From positions 23,560,001 to 23,624,000 of the forward strand of contig OZ024752.1 in assembly GCA_964016885.1 (NCBI GenBank): 64,000 bases of DNA, in the 5' to 3' direction. Source of the DNA: Eledone cirrhosa. Taxonomy: Eukaryota. The notes under the pieces are model-generated. The model saw only the letters and a list, made by a program, of their open reading frames with translations, was not told the DNA's origin and ran no database searches. Both the position numbers and the translations under genes were made by a program. Positions 43,902 to 59,407 of the stretch are shown piece after piece; the first letter of the stretch is position 1, and the number at the start of each line of letters is the position of its first letter.

Positions 43902-45942
43902 ATTACTCTTTTACTCTTTTACCTGTTTCAGCCATCCGGCTGAGGCCATGCTGGGGCACCGCCCTTGTTGCTACACATTTTATCTCCAGCCTGTATAGGT
44001 TGGCCACTGGTGTAGGAGGGAGTTTGTTGCTGCTGCCCTTAGGTTTCCCTCGTGTCTTGCTGTGGGCTCATCCGGGATCCTGGATAACAAGGTGTCGAGA
44101 TGTTTCTTAAAGACATCCACCTCCACGTCATGCAAGTCCCGCAGATGCCTCGGCAGCCTGTTGAAGAGTTGGGGGCCCTTGAATCCCAGGCTATTGCAAT
44201 ACCTGCTCCTTATTCTAGATGTGGAAGACGGGACCTTTGGCACCACACAGTGACGTCCTGTTCGACGGTTGGTCCAGCTCCAATGCCAAAGTTTGGTGCT
44301 AGTCCCTCCAGGATTTTCCACATGTAGATCACTGCGTATCTCTCCCGTCTTCGCTCCAAGGAGTAGAGGTTCAGTTCCTTCAGCCTCTCCCAGTAGCTTG
44401 TCTCCCTCATCTTGGCAATCCTCTTGGTGTAGCTTCGCTGGATTGCCTCAAGCTCTGTGGTTAGTTTGACACTATGGGGTGACCACAGCTGGGAGCAGTA
44501 GTCCAGGCGGCTTAGGACAAAAGTCCTCCACAGTGTCAACATGGTGTCTCGATCTCTTGTAAGGAAAGTCCTCAAGATCCAGCCAGCGAATCGTCTACAT
44601 GCTGTCGCCACCTTCATGATGTGTGAAGAAAAAGATGCATCATCGCTCATGTCTATGCCCAGGTCTCGTATCGATTTTGACACGGGGATATCGGTCCCTC
44701 CTGGTCCTGTGTAGCTGTGTTCCGCTATATTTGTGTTTGTGTTTGCAGGTTTGTATTGTAGGGCTTGGAATTTGCCAGCATTAAACTGCATGTTGTTTTC
44801 TTCCGCCCATCTGTATATGGCATCCAGATCCTGCTGTAAGAGGGCAGCGTCAGCCGGGTTTTTAATTGCCTGTGCTACCTTAGTGTCATCAGCATAGCTA
44901 GTGAGGGATGTTGTTGCATGCACCACAGAGGGCATGTCCGAGAGAGCCACCAAAAACAGTAGTGGTCCCAGGACTGTCCCCTGAGGCACCCCACTTGTTA
45001 TCGGTGTTTCCCTCGAGAGGGCCCCATTTGCTGCGACTGCCTGGCTTCTGTCCCTCAGGAAGCCATGCAGCCACTCACCTACTTTTCCAGTTATGCCGAG
45101 TCCGTGCAGTTTGTGACATATCATTCCGTGGTCGACCTTGTCAAAGGCCTTCGCAAAGTCAAGATATATCACGTCTACATGTGAGCTGTCTAGTAGCTGT
45201 CTCAGTACCCAGTCGTAGTGATGTAGCAGCTGTGTAAGGCAGCTTCTTCCTGGGCGGAAGCCATGTTGCGTGCTAGTCAGGCGGTCATTTTCTTCGAGGA
45301 AAGTGATTAGTTTCTTTCTGACGACTCGCTCCATGACCTTACTGATATGCGACGTCAGGGAGACTGGCCTATAGTTCTTGGCCTCCGCTCTACTACCTCC
45401 TTTATGGATAGGGCATATTGTGCCTTCTTTCAGCTCCCTGGGTAGTACACCGCTAGCCAAGGAGCTTCTGAAGAGCATCTTCAGTGGAGTTGCTAAGGCC
45501 CGCTTACATATTTTTAGGAGAACTGCTGGGAATCCATCAGGTCCAGCAGCCGAGTCCGTTCTAATTTCATCAATGGCGTACACCACATCCTCCTCCGTTA
45601 TGTCTATGTGGTTGATGGTTGCCATTTCGTGATGTAGTGTTGTGGCATCAAAGAACTCCTCTGGCTTCGTTATTTGCATGTGCCTCAGTGGACATGTGAA
45701 GACACTTTTGTACTGTTCGTTCAGTATTTCACATATCTTTTGGGGATTTTCGGTTAATGAACCGTCCATGTGGAAGAGTGGTCCAATCTTGCAGTGTACT
45801 GAGGCAGTTTCTTTTGCAAATTTAAAGAAGGCCTTAGGGTTTGTTTTAATGTTTTCTATGGCCCTGTTCTCTTTCCTTGCCCTCTCATTCTCATGTGAAA
45901 GCTTGAGTGCAATCTCGGTGTCAAGTAGTGCACGTTTCAAAT
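43902..45942 (-). mobile_element. CR1/L2-like LINE, 5'-truncated; RT reading frame open for 576 aa; same family as 9260-11729
   Basis: [58 protein letters not shown]; tail AAAGAGTAAAAGAGTAA. Confidence 0.95.
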
Positions 45943-46163
45943 AGGTATATATATGTATATATATGTATCTGTATATGTATATATGTATATATATGTATCT
46001 GTATATGTATATATGTATATATATGTATCTGTATATGTATGTATGTATATATATGTATATATCTGTATGTATGTATATATATGTATATATATGTATGTAT
46101 ATATATGTATATATCTGTATGTATGTATATATATGTATATATATATATGTATGTATATATATT

Positions 46164-50713: not shown

Positions 50714-53700
50714 TGAATATAGACATAGAATATTCGAAAATATTCTGTATGTTTATAATAAACATTTTGAAGACCTAATCGCTATAGAATAGAATACGTC
50801 ACGTATTACAATTAGATTCTCGATAATTTCTAATTTCTGCCGGACCGGCAACCGCTCTTTCAAACCAGCTCCTGTACACAGCTAAGTATTCTATAAGTCT
50901 CTAGCTGTGTCATTCTCGATAAAAGCACTGGATATGTAGTCCTGATGATTTCTAACGAGAATGAAACGCGTAGATTACTTCCCTTGCTTTTATCGAGAAT
51001 CTAATTGTAATACGTGACGTATTCTATTCTATAGCGATTAGGTCTTCAAAATGTTTATTATAAACATACAGAATATTTTCGAATATTCTATGTCTATATT
51101 CACATATATATCGCTATTTCAGAGCATTTATTCCAATTTCTAATTTCTGCCGGACCGGCAACCGCTCTTTCAAACCAGCTCCTGTACACAGCTAAGTATT
51201 CTATAAGTCTCTAGCTGTGTCATTCTCGATAAAAGCACTGGATATGTAGTCCTGATGATTTCTAACGAGAATGAAACGCGTAGATTACTTCCCTTGCTTT
51301 TATCGAGAATCTAATTGTAATACGTGACGTATTCTATTCTATAGCGATTAGGTCTTCAAAATGTTTATTATAAACATACAGAATATTTTCGAATATTCTA
51401 TGTCTATATTCACATATATATCGCTATTTCAGAGCATTTATTCCAATTTCTAATTTCTGCCGGACCGGCAACCGCTCTTTCAAACCAGCTCCTGTACACA
51501 GCTAAGTATTCTATAAGTCTCTAGCTGTGTCATTCTCGATAAAAGCACTGGATATGTAGTCCTGATGATTTCTAACGAGAATGAAACGCGTAGATTACTT
51601 CCCTTGCTTTTATCGAGAATCTAATTGTAATACGTGACGTATTCTATTCTATAGCGATTAGGTCTTCAAAATGTTTATTATAAACATACAGAATATTTTC
51701 GAATATTCTATGTCTATATTCACATATATATCGCTATTTCAGAGCATTTATTCCAATTTCTAATTTCTGCCGGACCGGCAACCGCTCTTTCAAACCAGCT
51801 CCTGTACACAGCTAAGTATTCTATAAGTCTCTAGCTGTGTCATTCTCGATAAAAGCACTGGATATGTAGTCCTGATGATTTCTAACGAGAATGAAACGCG
51901 TAGATTACTTCCCTTGCTTTTATCGAGAATCTAATTGTAATACGTGACGTATTCTATTCTATAGCGATTAGGTCTTCAAAATGTTTATTATAAACATACA
52001 GAATATTTTCGAATATTCTATGTCTATATTCACATATATATCGCTATTTCAGAGCATTTATTCCAATTTCTAATTTCTGCCGGACCGGCAACCGCTCTTT
52101 CAAACCAGCTCCTGTACACAGCTAAGTATTCTATAAGTCTCTAGCTGTGTCATTCTCGATAAAAGCACTGGATATGTAGTCCTGATGATTTCTAACGAGA
52201 ATGAAACGCGTAGATTACTTCCCTTGCTTTTATCGAGAATCTAATTGTAATACGTGACGTATTCTATTCTATAGCGATTAGGTCTTCAAAATGTTTATTA
52301 TAAACATACAGAATATTTTCGAATATTCTATGTCTATATTCACATATATATCGCTATTTCAGAGCATTTATTCCAATTTCTAATTTCTGCCGGACCGGCA
52401 ACCGCTCTTTCAAACCAGCTCCTGTACACAGCTAAGTATTCTATAAGTCTCTAGCTGTGTCATTCTCGATAAAAGCACTGGATATGTAGTCCTGATGATT
52501 TCTAACGAGAATGAAACGCGTAGATTACTTCCCTTGCTTTTATCGAGAATCTAATTGTAATACGTGACGTATTCTATTCTATAGCGATTAGGTCTTCAAA
52601 ATGTTTATTATAAACATACAGAATATTTTCGAATATTCTATGTCTATATTCACATATATATCGCTATTTCAGAGCATTTATTCCAATTTCTAATTTCTGC
52701 CGGACCGGCAACCGCTCTTTCAAACCAGCTCCTGTACACAGCTAAGTATTCTATAAGTCTCTAGCTGTGTCATTCTCGATAAAAGCACTGGATATGTAGT
52801 CCTGATGATTTCTAACGAGAATGAAACGCGTAGATTACTTCCCTTGCTTTTATCGAGAATCTAATTGTAATACGTGACGTATTCTATTCTATAGCGATTA
52901 GGTCTTCAAAATGTTTATTATAAACATACAGAATATTTTCGAATATTCTATGTCTATATTCACATATATATCGCTATTTCAGAGCATTTATTCCAATTTC
53001 TAATTTCTGCCGGACCGGCAACCGCTCTTTCAAACCAGCTCCTGTACACAGCTAAGTATTCTATAAGTCTCTAGCTGTGTCATTCTCGATAAAAGCACTG
53101 GATATGTAGTCCTGATGATTTCTAACGAGAATGAAACGCGTAGATTACTTCCCTTGCTTTTATCGAGAATCTAATTGTAATACGTGACGTATTCTATTCT
53201 ATAGCGATTAGGTCTTCAAAATGTTTATTATAAACATACAGAATATTTTCGAATATTCTATGTCTATATTCACATATATATCGCTATTTCAGAGCATTTA
53301 TTCCAATTTCTAATTTCTGCCGGACCGGCAACCGCTCTTTCAAACCAGCTCCTGTACACAGCTAAGTATTCTATAAGTCTCTAGCTGTGTCATTCTCGAT
53401 AAAAGCACTGGATATGTAGTCCTGATGATTTCTAACGAGAATGAAACGCGTAGATTACTTCCCTTGCTTTTATCGAGAATCTAATTGTAATACGTGACGT
53501 ATTCTATTCTATAGCGATTAGGTCTTCAAAATGTTTATTATAAACATACAGAATATTTTCGAATATTCTATGTCTATATTCACATATATATCGCTATTTC
53601 AGAGCATTTATTCCAATTTCTAATTTCTGCCGGACCGGCAACCGCTCTTTCAAACCAGCTCCTGTACACAGCTAAGTATTCTATAAGTCTCTAGCTGTGT

Positions 53701-55788
53701 CATTCTCGATAAAAGCACTGGATATGTAGTCCTGATGATTTCTAACGAGAATGAAACGCGTAGATTACTTCCCTTGCTTTTATCGAGAATCTAATTGTAA
53801 TACGTGACGTATTCTATTCTATAGCGATTAGGTCTTCAAATGTTTATTATAAACATACAGAATATTTTCGAATATTCTATGTCTATATTCACATATATAT
53901 CGCTATTTCAGAGCATTTATTCCAATTTCTAATTTCTGCCGGACCGGCAACCGCTCTTTCAAACCAGCTCCTGTACACAGCTAAGTATTCTATAAGTCTC
54001 TAGCTGTGTCATTCTCGATAAAAGCACTGGATATGTAGTCCTGATGATTTCTAACGAGAATGAAACGCGTAGATTACTTCCCTTGCTTTTATCGAGAATC
54101 TAATTGTAATACGTGACGTATTCTATTCTATAGCGATTAGGTCTTCAAAATGTTTATTATAAACATACAGAATATTTTCGAATATTCTATGTCTATATTC
54201 ACATATATATCGCTATTTCAGAGCATTTATTCCAATTTCTAATTTCTGCCGGACCGGCAACCGCTCTTTCAAACCAGCTCCTGTACACAGCTAAGTATTC
54301 TATAAGTCTCTAGCTGTGTCATTCTCGATAAAAGCACTGGATATGTAGTCCTGATGATTTCTAACGAGAATGAAACGCGTAGATTACTTCCTTGCTTTTA
54401 TCGAGAATCTAATTGTAATACGTGACGTATTCTATTCTATAGCGATTAGGTCTTCAAAATGTTTATTATAAACATACAGAATATTTTCGAATATTCTATG
54501 TCTATATTCACATATATATCGCTATTTCAGAGCATTTATTCCAATTTCTAATTTCTGCCGGACCGGCAACCGCTCTTTCAAACCAGCTCCTGTACACAGC
54601 TAAGTATTCTATAAGTCTCTAGCTGTGTCATTCTCGATAAAAGCACTGGATATGTAGTCCTGATGATTTCTAACGAGAATGAAACGCGTAGATTACTTCC
54701 CTTGCTTTTATCGAGAATCTAATTGTAATACGTGACGTATTCTATTCTATAGCGATTAGGTCTTCAAAATGTTTATTATAAACATACAGAATATTTTCGA
54801 ATATTCTATGTCTATATTCACATATATATCGCTATTTCAGAGCATTTATTCCAATTTCTAATTTCTGCCGGACCGGCAACCGCTCTTTCAAACCAGCTCC
54901 TGTACACAGCTAAGTATTCTATAAGTCTCTAGCTGTGTCATTCTCGATAAAAGCACTGGATATGTAGTCCTGATGATTTCTAACGAGAATGAAACGCGTA
55001 GATTACTTCCCTTGCTTTTATCGAGAATCTAATTGTAATACGTGACGTATTCTATTCTATAGCGATTAGGTCTTCAAAATGTTTATTATAAACATACAGA
55101 ATATTTTCGAATATTCTATGTCTATATTCACATATATATCGCTATTTCAGAGCATTTATTCCAATTTCTAATTTCTGCCGGACCGCAACCGCTCTTTCAA
55201 ACCAGCTCCTGTACACAGCTAAGTATTCTATAAGTCTCTAGCTGTGTCATTCTCGATAAAAGCACTGGATATGTAGTCCTGATGATTTCTAACGAGAATG
55301 AAACGCGTAGATTACTTCCCTTGCTTTTATCGAGAATCTAATTGTAATACGTGACGTATTCTATTCTATAGCGATTAGGTCTTCAAAATGTTTATTATAA
55401 ACATACAGAATATTTTCGAATATTCTATGTCTATATTCACATATATATCGCTATTTCAGAGCATTTATTCCAATTTCTAATTTCTGCCGGACCGGCAACC
55501 GCTCTTTCAAACCAGCTCCTGTACACAGCTAAGTATTCTATAAGTCTCTAGCTGTGTCATTCTCGATAAAAGCACTGGATATGTAGTCCTGATGATTTCT
55601 AACGAGAATGAAACGCGTAGATTACTTCCTTGCTTTTATCGAGAATCTAATTGTAATACGTGACGTATTCTATTCTATAGCGATTAGGTCTTCAAAATGT
55701 TTATTATAAACATACAGAATATTTTCGAATATTCTATGTCTATATTCACATATATATCGCTATTTCAGAGCATTTATTCCAATTTCTA
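50714..55788 (+). mobile_element. Retrozyme-like tandem array: 16 x 310-bp hammerhead-containing monomers with a 113-bp inverted 5' copy
   Basis: Period 310 (TAATTTCTGC at 50831, 51141, ...); 50714-50826 is the reverse complement of part of the monomer; each unit has GTAGTC-CTGATGA-TTTCTAACGAGAAT-GAAA-CGCG-TA-GATTAC. Confidence 0.85.
50912..51000 (+). ncRNA. Minimal type I hammerhead ribozyme (first of 16 copies)
   Basis: Core CTGATGA 50942-50948 and GAAA 50963-50966; stem II TTCT-aacg-AGAA; palindromic stem III ACGCGT; GUA cleavage after 50972; stem I GTAGTC/GATTAC extended by a perfect 16-bp helix 50912-50927/50985-51000. Confidence 0.88.
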
Positions 55789-55872
55789 TATGTATATATA
55801 TATATGTGTATATATATGTATATATATATATGTATATATATATGTATATATATATATGTATATATATGTATA

Positions 55873-55917
<45 letters not shown>

Positions 55918-55948
55918 GTCTATATATATATATATGTATATATATATG

Positions 55949-55979
<31 letters not shown>

Positions 55980-56072
55980 GTATATATATGTATATATATA
56001 TATGTATATATATATATGTATATATATGTATATATATATATGTATATATATGTATATATATATATATGTATA
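55789..56072. repeat. (TA)n-derived satellite
   Basis: Direct reading; resembles ~48226-48500. Confidence 0.9.
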
Positions 56073-58232
56073 TAACTTTGAATAACTTTGAAATGTTTTG
56101 GCCAGTATTGGCCCAGGCCATGTCTAACTTAATAGCACCACCTGGCGAAGTCTTTCAATTCAGAATTTGGGCACCATGGCCCATTCGAGAAGAGAATTAC
56201 TGTTTGCGGAGACATATCCGGGTGTGGGTGGTTTGTCCGGGATTACTTGGAGGAATTTGTCCAAAGACTTCTTGAATTTTGTGTGGTCAGTTTCTGTTTT
56301 GACGTGTCCTGGTGTGATGTTGAAGAGAGCAGGGCCGATTGAGGTGAAATAATTGTGCCGTATTGTTGTTATGAGTTGCGATTTAGATTTTGAATGGGAC
56401 GGATAGCACGGGGCCCAAGCCTTGGGTGTATCTTGAAGGCGATGCCAACATCATTTGGGCAGTGATGATGGAACATTTTCCACATCATGCAGATAATATA
56501 ACGCTCACGGCGACGTTGGAGTGAGTAAAGTTTCAGGTTTTCCAATCGACCCCAGTAGTCAAGGTCTGACATGCCATCTATCTTTTTCGTGATTGCCCTT
56601 TGAGGAGCTTCAAGTTTCATGATACTTTGTTTCGTGTGGGGAGACCACAGTGGACAACAGTATTCAAGGTGTGGTCGGGCGAAAGTAGAGAAGAGAAGGA
56701 TAATGGTGCGGGAATCTCTCGACTGGAAGGTTCTGAGGATCCAGGAACACATTCTGCGGGCCATGTCAACTTTGCTGCTTATATGCGTGGTCCAGCTTAT
56801 GTTGCTGTCCACGGTTACTCCCATGTCTCTGATGTTGTTAGATGCCACGAGAGTTTCCCGGAGGGAAGGGAGTACGGGAGTTTCAGAGCATCCTCTTTTC
56901 CAAAGTGGATCAGTTCGAATTTGTCTTCGTTCAGTAACATGTTGTTCTTTTCTGCCCATTGGGTAACAGCCAGTAGGTCTGACTGAAGCTTATCCGGTCA
57001 TCCACGCCATTGATGACCTTTTGGAGCTTGGAATCATCAGCGAAAATTTTAATGTTGCTGTGTTTGATGATGTCAGTGATGTCATTAATATAGATGATGA
57101 AGAGAAGTGGGCCCAACACAGTGCCTTGTGGGACTCCACTACTGACTTTGGCTGGGCTTGATTTGACTCCCTCAACTACAACATGTTGGGTTCTGTTTGA
57201 CAGGAAGCTCTTGATCCACTGCAGCAGCTTTCCAGTGACACCAATATTGGACAGCTTTCTCAGTAGAATGTTATGATCAACCCTGTCAAAGGCCTTGCTG
57301 AAATCAAGGTAGATAACATCAGTGTTGGAACCCTCTCCCAAGGCTCTCAAAATGTCATCAAAGTGATGCAGTAGTTGCGTCAGGCAATCCCTTCCATTAC
57401 GGAATCCATGCTGGTTGGAGTTCAGCATATTGTTACTCTCAAGGAAGTGGGTCATTCGCGATCTCACCACTCGCTCAAATACCTTAATGATATGAGAGGT
57501 GAGTGAGATTGGACGGTAATTCACGGCAAGGGATTTGTTTCCCTTTTTGAAAACTGGGACAACAGACTGGGATAGAAGGTTTTCTGGCACATATCCAGCA
57601 TCCAGTGAGTTCCGCCACAGATTGGCAAGAGGAGAAGCAAGTTGGTGTTGACACGCCTTCAAGACACAAGCAGGGAACCTATCGGGACCTACTGCTGAAT
57701 TATGCTTGATTTCCTTTATTGCCGCCAAGACATCAGGGGCGCCAAACGTTATGTCCGATAAGGTGTAATGGGGAGTAACATCGCCGATACAGCCCAGATC
57801 GGCCATATCAGGATTGCTGAAAACAGAGCAGTATTGTTTCTGCAGTATCTCACCCATAGTTTTAGCATTGTCTTGAAGAGTGCCATTTTCATCAATTAGA
57901 GGGCCAACAGTAGAGCCAGTGATTTTGTGTTTTTTTGCAAATGAAAAGAACACTTTGGGATTGAGTTTGATCTTCTCAATGGCCCAGGCCTCTTCAGCTC
58001 TTCTCTGATTGTTGATGAGGGACATTATGTTGTTTTGGAGGTTATGTTTTTTAATCTCTAGTGATGAAATGGCAGTCAAGTTGATGTGTTGCTGCTGACA
58101 GTATTTCAGCTTGTTGATTTTTTTGTTCGTTCTCTTAATTTTTCTGATGAGCGTTTTTCTATTTCTAGGGATTCTGCTCTTAGATTTGTTTATAGTTCTT
58201 AATGGGGTGTGTTTAGCACATATGTTTGTAAC
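56073..58232 (-). mobile_element. CR1/L2-like LINE (second family), 5'-truncated and frameshifted
   Basis: ORFs 56931..58079 and 56369..56959: [69 protein letters not shown]; tail (TTCAAAGTTA)x2. Confidence 0.93.
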
Positions 58233-59407
58233 ATATATGTATATATATGTATATATGTATATATATATGTATATATATGTATATATATATATGTATGTAT
58301 ATATATATGTATATATATATGTATATATATGTATATATATATATGTATGTATATATATATGTATATATATGTATATATATATATGTATGTATATATATAT
58401 GTATATATATGTATGTATATATATATGTATATATATTTATATATATATATGTATATATATGTATATATATATATGTATATATATTTATATATATATATAT
58501 ATGTATATGTATATATATATATGTATATATATATGTATATATATATGTATATATATATATGTATATATATATGTATATATATATGTGTATATATATATGT
58601 ATATATATATATGTATATATATGTATATATATATATGTATATATATGTATATATATATATGTATATATATGTATATATATATATATATGTATATATATGT
58701 ATATATATATATGTATATATATGTATATATATATATGTATATATATATGTATATATATGTATATATATATATGTATATATATATGTATATATATGTATAT
58801 ATATATGTATATATATGTATATATATGTATGTATATATATGTATATATATGTAAATATATGTATGTATATATATGTATATATGTATATATATATGTATAT
58901 ATATATATGTATGTATGTATATATATGTATATATATATATGTATATATATATATGTATGTATGTATATATATGTATATATATATATGTATATATATGTAT
59001 ATATATATATGTAAATATATGTATATATATGTATATGTATATATATGTATATGTATATATATGTATATATATATATGTATATATATGTATATATATATAT
59101 ATATGTATATATATGTATATGTATATATATGTATATATATATGTATATATATGTATATGTATATATATGTATATATATATGTATATATATGTATATGTAT
59201 ATATATGTATATGTATATATATGTATATATATATATATGTATATATATGTATATATATGTATATGTATATATATGTATATATATGTATATATATATGTAT
59301 ATATATGTATATATATGTATATATATATATGTATATATATGTATATATATGTATATATATATGTATATATATGTATATATATATATGTATATATATGTAT
59401 ATATATG

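What the first reader, a model, noticed from the sequence alone, without database searches (positions are those of the whole stretch)
50825..55788. 16-copy, 310-bp hammerhead-ribozyme (retrozyme-like) tandem array
Seen: 16 head-to-tail monomers plus 8 nt, differing by only four single-base deletions I could spot (~53840, ~54390, ~55185, ~55629). Every monomer holds a type I hammerhead with a palindromic minimal stem III (ACGCGT), a GUA site, a bulged stem I and a 16-bp closing helix. Known: tandem monomers of a few hundred nt with minimal type I hammerheads define non-LTR retrozymes (newt satellite 2, Schistosoma SMalpha, cricket pDo500); they self-cleave to unit length, can circularise, and palindromic stem III motifs are thought to act as dimers. 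Inference: a very young, non-coding retroelement copied by rolling-circle reverse transcription of a 310-nt circular RNA, probably using a Penelope-like RT. I am not aware of this family being described in cephalopods, but could not search.
Basis: partly seen in the sequence, partly recalled or inferred. Interest (0 to 1): 0.93.

Follow-up and report, generated by a model that had tools for sequence, protein, structure and literature searches.

The report
Two-armed ribozyme retroelement in an octopus
A short self-cutting-type RNA sequence has been copied into this octopus genome about two thousand times as back-to-back strings of repeats, and the shape of those insertions points to a Penelope-type transposon enzyme copying a small RNA circle from both ends of the cut DNA.

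Summary
The 16 x 310-bp array is real, but it is half of an insertion: an inverted 113-bp arm (50714-50826) abuts it. It belongs to a young family of about 15,000 units at about 2,000 sites. Of 24 loci read, 20 have two head-to-head arms; 19 of these pair one arm ending near unit position 278 with one ending near 313, both in (TA)n. That is the Penelope-like element (PLE) signature: inverted 5'-truncated copy, 30-40-nt tail, TA target. Both arms are usually multimeric and share one haplotype (17 of 20; 3 expected), while arrays differ between loci. Best reading: a non-LTR retrozyme whose circular RNA is reverse-transcribed from both target ends by a PLE enzyme. The hammerhead has no Rfam hit but covaries with relatives and folds as an active core only in a dimer. 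Cleavage, circles, expression and the partner PLE are not shown. Retrozymes and their PLE link are published; this insertion-level evidence and an octopod record were not in my searches. The scan earlier noted a similar, ribozyme-free architecture in another animal (e1-7881736).

The parts
50714..50826 (-). Short arm: inverted, 5'-truncated copy of unit positions 166-278; outer end at the 278 start site, running into TA repeat
50825..55788 (+). Tail arm: 16 head-to-tail 310-bp units plus 8 nt; outer end at unit position 318 (family mode 313)
50825..50826 (.). Head-to-head junction with 2-nt overlap (AA)
50936..50978 (+). Type I hammerhead of unit 1 (repeats every 310 bp): stem I 50936-50941/50973-50978, core 50942-50948, U.U at 50949/50962, stem II 50950-50953/50958-50961, GAAA 50963-50966, palindrome 50966-50971, predicted cut after 50972
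   Evidence: cut site inferred from hammerhead consensus
50912..51000 (+). 16-bp helix (50912-50927 with 50985-51000) closing the hammerhead domain; its ends also supply junction microhomology at other loci
51030..51189 (+). Conserved 160 nt around the two end sites (unit 206-310 plus 1-55): 62-85% identical to sister families against 35-55% elsewhere; candidate enzyme-binding element
   Evidence: function inferred
55749..55788 (+). PLE-type tail: sequence beyond position 278 present only on this arm (40 nt here, 35 nt at the family mode)
   Evidence: PMC8557442, PMC11167929
45946..50713 (.). Left flank: TA-rich microsatellite (target)
55789..56074 (.). Right flank: TA-rich microsatellite (target)

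Best explanation
A non-autonomous non-LTR retrozyme carried by a Penelope-like RT/endonuclease. Steps: (1) arrays are transcribed as multimers [inferred]; (2) neighbouring hammerheads pair through the palindrome into a double hammerhead and cut after each GUA, giving 310-nt monomers that are ligated to circles in which the ribozyme is off [folding shown in silico; cleavage and ligation inferred from known retrozymes]; (3) a PLE enzyme, probably a dimer, binds the conserved 160-nt region, nicks both strands of a (TA)n site and starts cDNA from both DNA ends, at unit positions 313 and 278 [end positions and target shown; enzyme inferred from PMC11167929]; (4) each RT runs round the circle a random number of turns, about 4-5 on average [arm lengths shown; circle inferred]; (5) the two cDNA 3' ends join by microhomology or a short insert and are filled in, leaving two head-to-head arrays of one haplotype [junctions and shared haplotype shown].
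For: 20 of 24 loci read are two-armed, always 5' ends inward; 19 of 20 pair a short and a tail end. 13 of 22 short ends at 278, 13 of 22 tail ends at 313; 43 of 44 ends run into TA-rich repeat. On C1 1-217.8 Mb, 53 of 81 tail ends have an outward-facing short end within 20 kb (0.5% by chance), 0 tail-tail and 1 short-short pair. 18 of 19 arms of each kind exceed what a linear monomer cut at the ribozyme could template; both arms exceed one unit in 14 of 19. Arm haplotypes identical in 17 of 20 (3.0 expected from other loci); only 9 of 276 locus pairs identical. In 8 arrays chosen by position: 2 minority bases in 21,390 nt, against 2.75 differences per unit between arrays, i.e. a one-unit bottleneck at each insertion. 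Arm lengths fit an exponential (KS p 0.83), insert lengths a gamma of shape 1.8. Junction overlap of 2 nt or more in 9 of 16 mapped (null 17.5%, p 0.0005). Hammerhead: 9 of 12 pairs with two-sided changes across 16 sequences of three families, all slid controls 0-2; the free MFE of a dimer is the double hammerhead, 19.9 kcal/mol below two monomeric ones; in the circle stem II pairs at 0.13-0.15. Intact RT + GIY-YIG PLEs are abundant here.
Against: No RNA evidence obtained. No Rfam hammerhead hit; U.U at the base of stem II in most copies. Only 1 of 9 predicted Xenopus retrozyme dimers cleaved in vitro (10.64898/2026.07.22.740005). For the Anolis PLE, ribozyme cleavage was not needed and uncut RNA was the main substrate (PMC11167929). 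No PLE with sequence similarity to the conserved region was found. One 54.6-unit array repeats its variant pattern 18 units apart, so DNA-level duplication also occurs. One chimeric locus (L206) suggests that the two ends can use different RNAs. The covariation alignment holds related sequences, so cells are not independent. 4 of 24 loci are one-armed, and 28 of 81 tail ends had no strict-pattern partner (the strict pattern finds 8 of 13 known short ends).
Confidence: 0.62

Rival explanations
1. Same PLE dual priming, but the templates are uncut linear multimer transcripts from one dominant source array (one or two RNA molecules); the ribozyme is dispensable for copying.
For: Uncut RNA was the main substrate of the Anolis PLE in vitro (PMC11167929). 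It explains ends, tail and orientation equally well. L206 looks like two different RNAs in one insertion.
Against: Array-to-array copying should pass on within-array mixtures. Instead 12 distinct haplotypes occur among 14 position-chosen loci, each fixed across all units. The ribozyme core is conserved while stems covary.
Confidence: 0.22
2. PLE inserts short (1-2 unit) two-armed copies; the long arrays arise afterwards by unequal crossing-over or slippage, as a satellite.
For: The 18-unit repeat of variants in L035-37, and linked recurrent variants in the older L040-41 array. 10.64898/2026.07.22.740005 discusses this local-amplification route.
Against: Arm lengths are continuous and exponential from 0.4 to 10 units with no gap near 1-2 units. 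Both arms are long in 10 of 19. Arrays are nearly free of mutations.
Confidence: 0.09
3. The second arm is a fold-back copy of the first cDNA (self-priming, as proposed for PLEs in PMC3846280), cut at the other end site.
For: It explains the shared haplotype directly. 3 junctions have arm starts within 13 nt of each other.
Against: 4 of 19 loci have arm lengths impossible for a simple fold-back in either order. Two RT start sites flanking the tail were seen in vitro (PMC11167929).
Confidence: 0.06
4. The array is an assembly or library concatemer artefact.
For: Four indels in base runs at this locus; an assembly gap 8 kb upstream. The exact copy number here was not checked on reads.
Against: About 2,000 sites with unique flanks, fixed ends and private haplotypes. 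The head-to-tail junction is present in contigs of 3 of 3 laid contig runs from 3 studies.
Confidence: 0.01

Closest known systems
Animal non-LTR retrozymes (coral, mussel, axolotl; PMC7229834; Xenopus and other vertebrates, 10.64898/2026.07.22.740005)
   Same: Tandem 150-450-bp non-coding units, GC below 50% (35% here), one type I hammerhead per unit; 1-bp helix III with palindromic loop as in axolotl HHR_Amex1; U.U at the base of helix II as in HHR_Amex2, which cleaves; proposed circle-templated copying by PLEs.
   Different: Neither paper's main text describes inverted arms, tails or fixed ends (term searches). The PLE link there rests on co-occurrence and pLTR homology, here on insertion structure. 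PMC7761336 says such repeats show no conserved motif pointing to a partner; here a 160-nt region around the ends is conserved across sister families. No expression or cleavage data here.
EN+ Penelope-like elements (PMC8557442, PMC3846280, PMC11167929)
   Same: Head-to-head inverted 5'-truncated copy, 30-40-nt tail on one end, TA-microsatellite target, microhomology junctions, two RT start sites.
   Different: No ORF. Both arms are perfect multimers of a 310-nt unit rather than partial copies of a 3-4-kb element. No pLTR homology to a local PLE was found.
Non-autonomous Chlamys PLEs such as MRC1 (passage in PMC8557442)
   Same: Non-coding, multicopy head-to-tail insertions carried by a PLE.
   Different: Green algae; mostly without hammerheads; they resemble their partner at the 3' end.
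L1 twin priming (recalled, not read)
   Same: Both target ends prime cDNA, giving an inverted 5' part.
   Different: In L1 the second priming site is variable and lies near where the first cDNA stops. Here it is fixed, and the 5' starts of both arms are spread round the unit (Rayleigh p 0.95 and 0.75).

Membership tests
Animal non-LTR retrozyme | Tandem units of about 150-450 bp, GC below 50%, dispersed at many loci | tested here: met
   310 bp, GC 0.35, about 2,000 loci
Animal non-LTR retrozyme | Type I hammerhead fold in every unit | tested here: met
   Core intact in 16 of 16 units; covariation 9 of 12 pairs; family-A changes fall at N7, in loop 2, keep pairing or (2 loci) add one base in stem I
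Animal non-LTR retrozyme | Match to a curated Rfam hammerhead model | tested here: not met
   No hit at gathering score or up to E 10; the cited papers define these ribozymes by descriptor, not by Rfam
Animal non-LTR retrozyme | No coding capacity, no LTR structure or tRNA head | tested here: met
   Longest stop-free frame 59 aa round the circle; no tRNA in the window; primer-binding site not searched separately
Animal non-LTR retrozyme | Self-cleavage as monomer or dimer | not testable with these tools
   Folding favours dimer-only activity
Animal non-LTR retrozyme | Expression as linear and circular monomer RNA | not testable with these tools
   No raw RNA reads were available to lay
PLE-mobilised insertion | Inverted 5'-truncated copy in head-to-head arrangement | tested here: met
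   20 of 24 loci read; 53 of 81 tail ends by pattern
PLE-mobilised insertion | 30-40-nt tail on one end only | tested here: met
   Modes 278 and 313, 35 nt apart; 19 of 20 two-armed loci
PLE-mobilised insertion | AT-rich or microsatellite target | tested here: met
   43 of 44 ends
PLE-mobilised insertion | Sequence shared with the pLTR of an autonomous PLE | tested here: inconclusive
   None found in about five PLE families examined; many more families exist
Autonomous PLE | RT + GIY-YIG ORF | tested here: not met
   Non-coding

The most novel reading that the evidence does not exclude
Beyond the two-RTs-on-one-circle mechanism, the 310-nt circle also moves between species as a viroid-like RNA. 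Near-identical sequence stands in 20 public runs of 17 studies under 18 organism labels, and 3 of 3 laid contig sets give one closed single-variant circle at depth 5-14. Trace octopus DNA of a very high-copy repeat, or related octopods, explain this more simply; the coded labels do not let me tell, and 0 hits came from viral and metagenome contigs.
Probability: 0.05. Interest if true: 0.9.

Novelty: new variant of a known kind. Interest (0 to 1): 0.62.

Why it matters
Two questions are called open in the papers read: which enzyme moves animal retrozymes and whether circles are the templates (PMC7229834, PMC7761336), and how PLEs make their inverted-plus-tail insertions (PMC8557442, PMC11167929). 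Because the template here is tiny and repeated, about 2,000 insertions record each RT's start site, run length and source haplotype. They say that both DNA ends prime at two fixed sites on RNA of one haplotype and run for several unit lengths. This makes a direct test possible with the existing in vitro PLE assay and a ligated 310-nt RNA. If true, it is a natural circle-templated, two-ended insertion system, and it adds about 5 Mb of young ribozyme-bearing repeat to an octopod genome.

Tried and rejected
Rfam: no hammerhead hit. Partner search: 3' and 5' flanks of Hydra-like, Neptune-like and a third PLE family (clade labels from recalled motifs), 60 loci from two protein searches, 8 further core-pattern loci and 15 tail-pattern loci showed no PLE carrying the conserved region. 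One local-alignment hit spanned two unrelated elements and was dropped; hits were TA repeat. A protein homologue search gave no names. Public runs: no RNA holder listed; the one raw-read run laid gave 0 reads, which the tool calls no test. Viral and metagenome contigs: 0 matches. A hotspot at unit position 45 (C in minority units of 5 loci) was set aside: those loci were picked for likeness to the window, and 0 of 69 units in position-chosen arrays show it. Multi-allelic recurrences in L040-41 as a sign of a damaged template base: one locus only, and linked variants point to gene conversion. Target-site duplications cannot be read in TA repeat. Short-end positions were mis-anchored and redone. 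3 of 19 junctions could not be anchored, and one apparent 16-nt insert there (L077) comes from using the window unit as reference. The bacterial promoter scan was uninformative. Earlier-findings look-ups by sequence and by genome were empty.
Full report
Observation. The array is as described: 16 units of 310 bp at 50825-55780 plus 8 nt, 12 identical and 4 with one deletion in a base run. The unit is 35% GC, has no stop-free frame over 59 aa on either strand when read as a circle, and folds better than shuffles (z -3.9). Both outer ends run into TA microsatellite.

Hammerhead. Rfam finds none, so I tested the fold by comparison. A motif scan of the fetched loci found related hammerheads in other repeat families of this genome. 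On 16 sequences (9 of this family, 7 of two others), 94% of cells pair and 9 of 12 pairs show two-sided changes, against 0-2 in slid controls; the sequences are related, so this counts few independent events. The catalytic core is invariant except at N7. The pair closing stem II is U.U in 12 of 16, A-U in 3 and G-C in 1; an axolotl hammerhead with this mismatch cleaves (PMC7229834). In a monomer or circle, stem II pairs with probability 0.13-0.15 and stem III not at all. In a dimer, the unconstrained minimum-energy fold is the double hammerhead, 19.9 kcal/mol below two single ones. Activity is not shown, and only 1 of 9 predicted Xenopus dimers cleaved (10.64898/2026.07.22.740005).

Family. 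A 28-nt core pattern has 18,678 matches in the 3.0-Gb genome (control 0); 83 of the first 100 are this family, the rest sister families, so about 15,000 units. Strict end patterns give 1,051 tail ends and 1,253 short ends; the short pattern finds 8 of 13 known ends, so about 2,000 insertions. The host is an octopod by inference: haemocyanin genes, one of which shows seven units in a row, and a last unit scoring 855 bits on 1js8, 734-738 on 4yd9/6r83 and 488-514 on gastropod-type chains (organisms of these chains recalled).

Insertion anatomy. I read 24 loci: the window, 9 picked by likeness and 14 picked by position on C1 (these need one internal core copy, so very short insertions are missed). 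20 have two arms, always minus then plus, so 3' ends face out; 19 of 20 pair a short end with a tail end. 13 of 22 short ends stop at 278 and 13 of 22 tail ends at 313; 43 of 44 ends enter TA-rich repeat. From coordinates alone, on C1 1-217.8 Mb, 53 of 81 tail ends have an outward-facing short end within 20 kb (0.5% by chance), 3 an inward-facing one, 2 a same-strand one; tail-tail pairs 0, short-short 1. Median insert length is 7.9 units. An inverted 5'-truncated copy, a 30-40-bp tail at one end and (TA)n targets are PLE hallmarks (PMC8557442, PMC3846280). The Anolis PLE protein nicks and extends both strands, starts at two internal sites that bound the tail, and is predicted to be a dimer (PMC11167929). 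Intact RT + GIY-YIG PLEs are plentiful here.

Template. A monomer cut at the ribozyme could template only 130 or 165 nt; 18 of 19 arms of each kind are longer, and both arms exceed one unit in 14 of 19. The arms of one insertion have the same haplotype in 17 of 20 loci (3.0 expected if drawn from other loci; the 3 exceptions are older copies with 1-3 differences), whereas 9 of 276 locus pairs are identical. Eight position-chosen arrays hold 2 minority bases in 21,390 nt but differ from each other by 2.75 per unit. That pattern needs a one-unit bottleneck at each insertion, which a circle gives. Arm lengths fit an exponential and insert lengths a gamma of shape 1.8, as for two independent runs; arm lengths correlate in the 11 position-chosen loci (rho 0.63, p 0.04) but not in all 19 (p 0.50). 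5' starts are spread round the unit, with some clustering at the ends of the 16-bp helix. Junctions show 2 nt or more of overlap in 9 of 16 mapped (p 0.0005) or short inserts. 4 of 19 loci exclude a simple fold-back. Against: DNA-level duplication is visible in one 54.6-unit array, uncut RNA sufficed for the Anolis enzyme, and one chimeric locus suggests two RNAs. A linear multimer from one dominant source therefore stays a live rival.

Sister families and partner. At least three related 313-324-bp families share the ends and the head-to-head habit; a looser tail pattern has 2,979 matches. Identity to this family peaks around the two end sites (62-85%) and is 37-54% in the hammerhead region, where sisters carry other hammerhead variants with longer stem III. 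No autonomous PLE with that region was found. At L206 a truncated PLE forms the left arm and a sister retrozyme the right arm with no TA spacer: one case, a lead only, since that PLE family is very abundant.

Public data. 20 runs of 17 studies under 18 coded organism labels hold 59-91% of sampled words. Three laid contig sets each give one contig that closes the 310-nt unit on itself at depth 5-14, with 1-3 differences. A tandem DNA array and a circular RNA look alike in such contigs. This confirms the head-to-tail junction outside this assembly and says nothing on expression.

What is known. Non-LTR retrozymes, their circles and the proposal of PLE mobilisation are published. I read PMC7229834 (parts 2-4 of 6 and a term search), 10.64898/2026.07.22.740005 (parts 1-3 of 5 and a term search), PMC11167929 (parts 1-2 of 4), PMC4209133 (part 1 of 4), and passages of PMC8557442, PMC3846280 and PMC7761336. 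Eight searches gave no paper on cephalopod retrozymes or on two-armed retrozyme arrays. The library lacks most subscription papers, I read no supplements, and those of PMC4209133, PMC7229834 and the preprint could list cephalopod motifs or inverted copies. An earlier AI note (e1-7881736) describes inverted-head tandem arrays with PLE marks but no ribozyme in another animal; I saw it after forming this reading and did not test it.

Verdict. A real, young non-LTR retrozyme family by every sequence criterion tested except an Rfam match. PLE mobilisation is strongly supported (about 0.9); the single-circle, two-ended mechanism is the best reading (0.62). New variant of a known kind; interest 0.62.

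Noticed in passing
window 8782(-), 8991(+), 32087(-), 32187(+): Other type I hammerhead-like motifs with longer stem III; the pair near 32.1 kb is inverted, suggesting another PLE-type element. The genome holds many hammerhead families.
   Followed up: no
L206:2383-3885 (C1 22.609-22.611 Mb): Chimeric head-to-head insertion: truncated PLE ORF end as left arm, sister retrozyme with tail as right arm, no TA spacer. Candidate partner lead.
   Followed up: partly
L098:3297-3340, L148:3235-3302, L042:855-880: A short, recurrent element carries a hammerhead whose stem II matches this family's (26 of 28 nt over core and stem II) but has a longer stem III; in L098 it ends a PLE copy.
   Followed up: partly
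L075:4657, L080:3673, L087:5976, L091:5712 and 6303, L031:9222: Families D and E: abundant repeats with the same hammerhead architecture and a different palindromic loop, often followed by a long near-perfect inverted repeat.
   Followed up: partly
L082, L091, L186, L191, L195, L196: Sister retrozymes use the U3-A8 core variant and a longer stem III, and mostly have shorter arrays than the dimer-only family; a more stable circle might allow longer runs (inference).
   Followed up: partly
L035-L037 (C3 60.53-60.55 Mb): One-armed 54.6-unit array with variants repeating 18 units apart: later duplication or assembly effect.
   Followed up: partly
L040-L041: Older 22-unit arm with recurrent and multi-allelic variants at positions 15, 26, 56, 218 and 248.
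   Followed up: partly
L074:3749-4148: Junction with two successive inversions, i.e. repeated template switching.
   Followed up: no
L166, L167, L123: Very young PLE family with many intact 775-aa RT + GIY-YIG frames, an upstream frameshifted reading frame and a longer tail of about 65 nt.
   Followed up: partly
window 44210-46162 and 56369-58436 (minus strand): LINE RT fragments (RVT_1) whose 5' ends abut 3.5-4.8-kb TA-rich tracts; assembly gap near 42.6-42.8 kb.
   Followed up: no
public runs X1-X20: Near-identical unit in 17 studies under 18 organism labels, at low depth where laid; source unexplained.
   Followed up: partly
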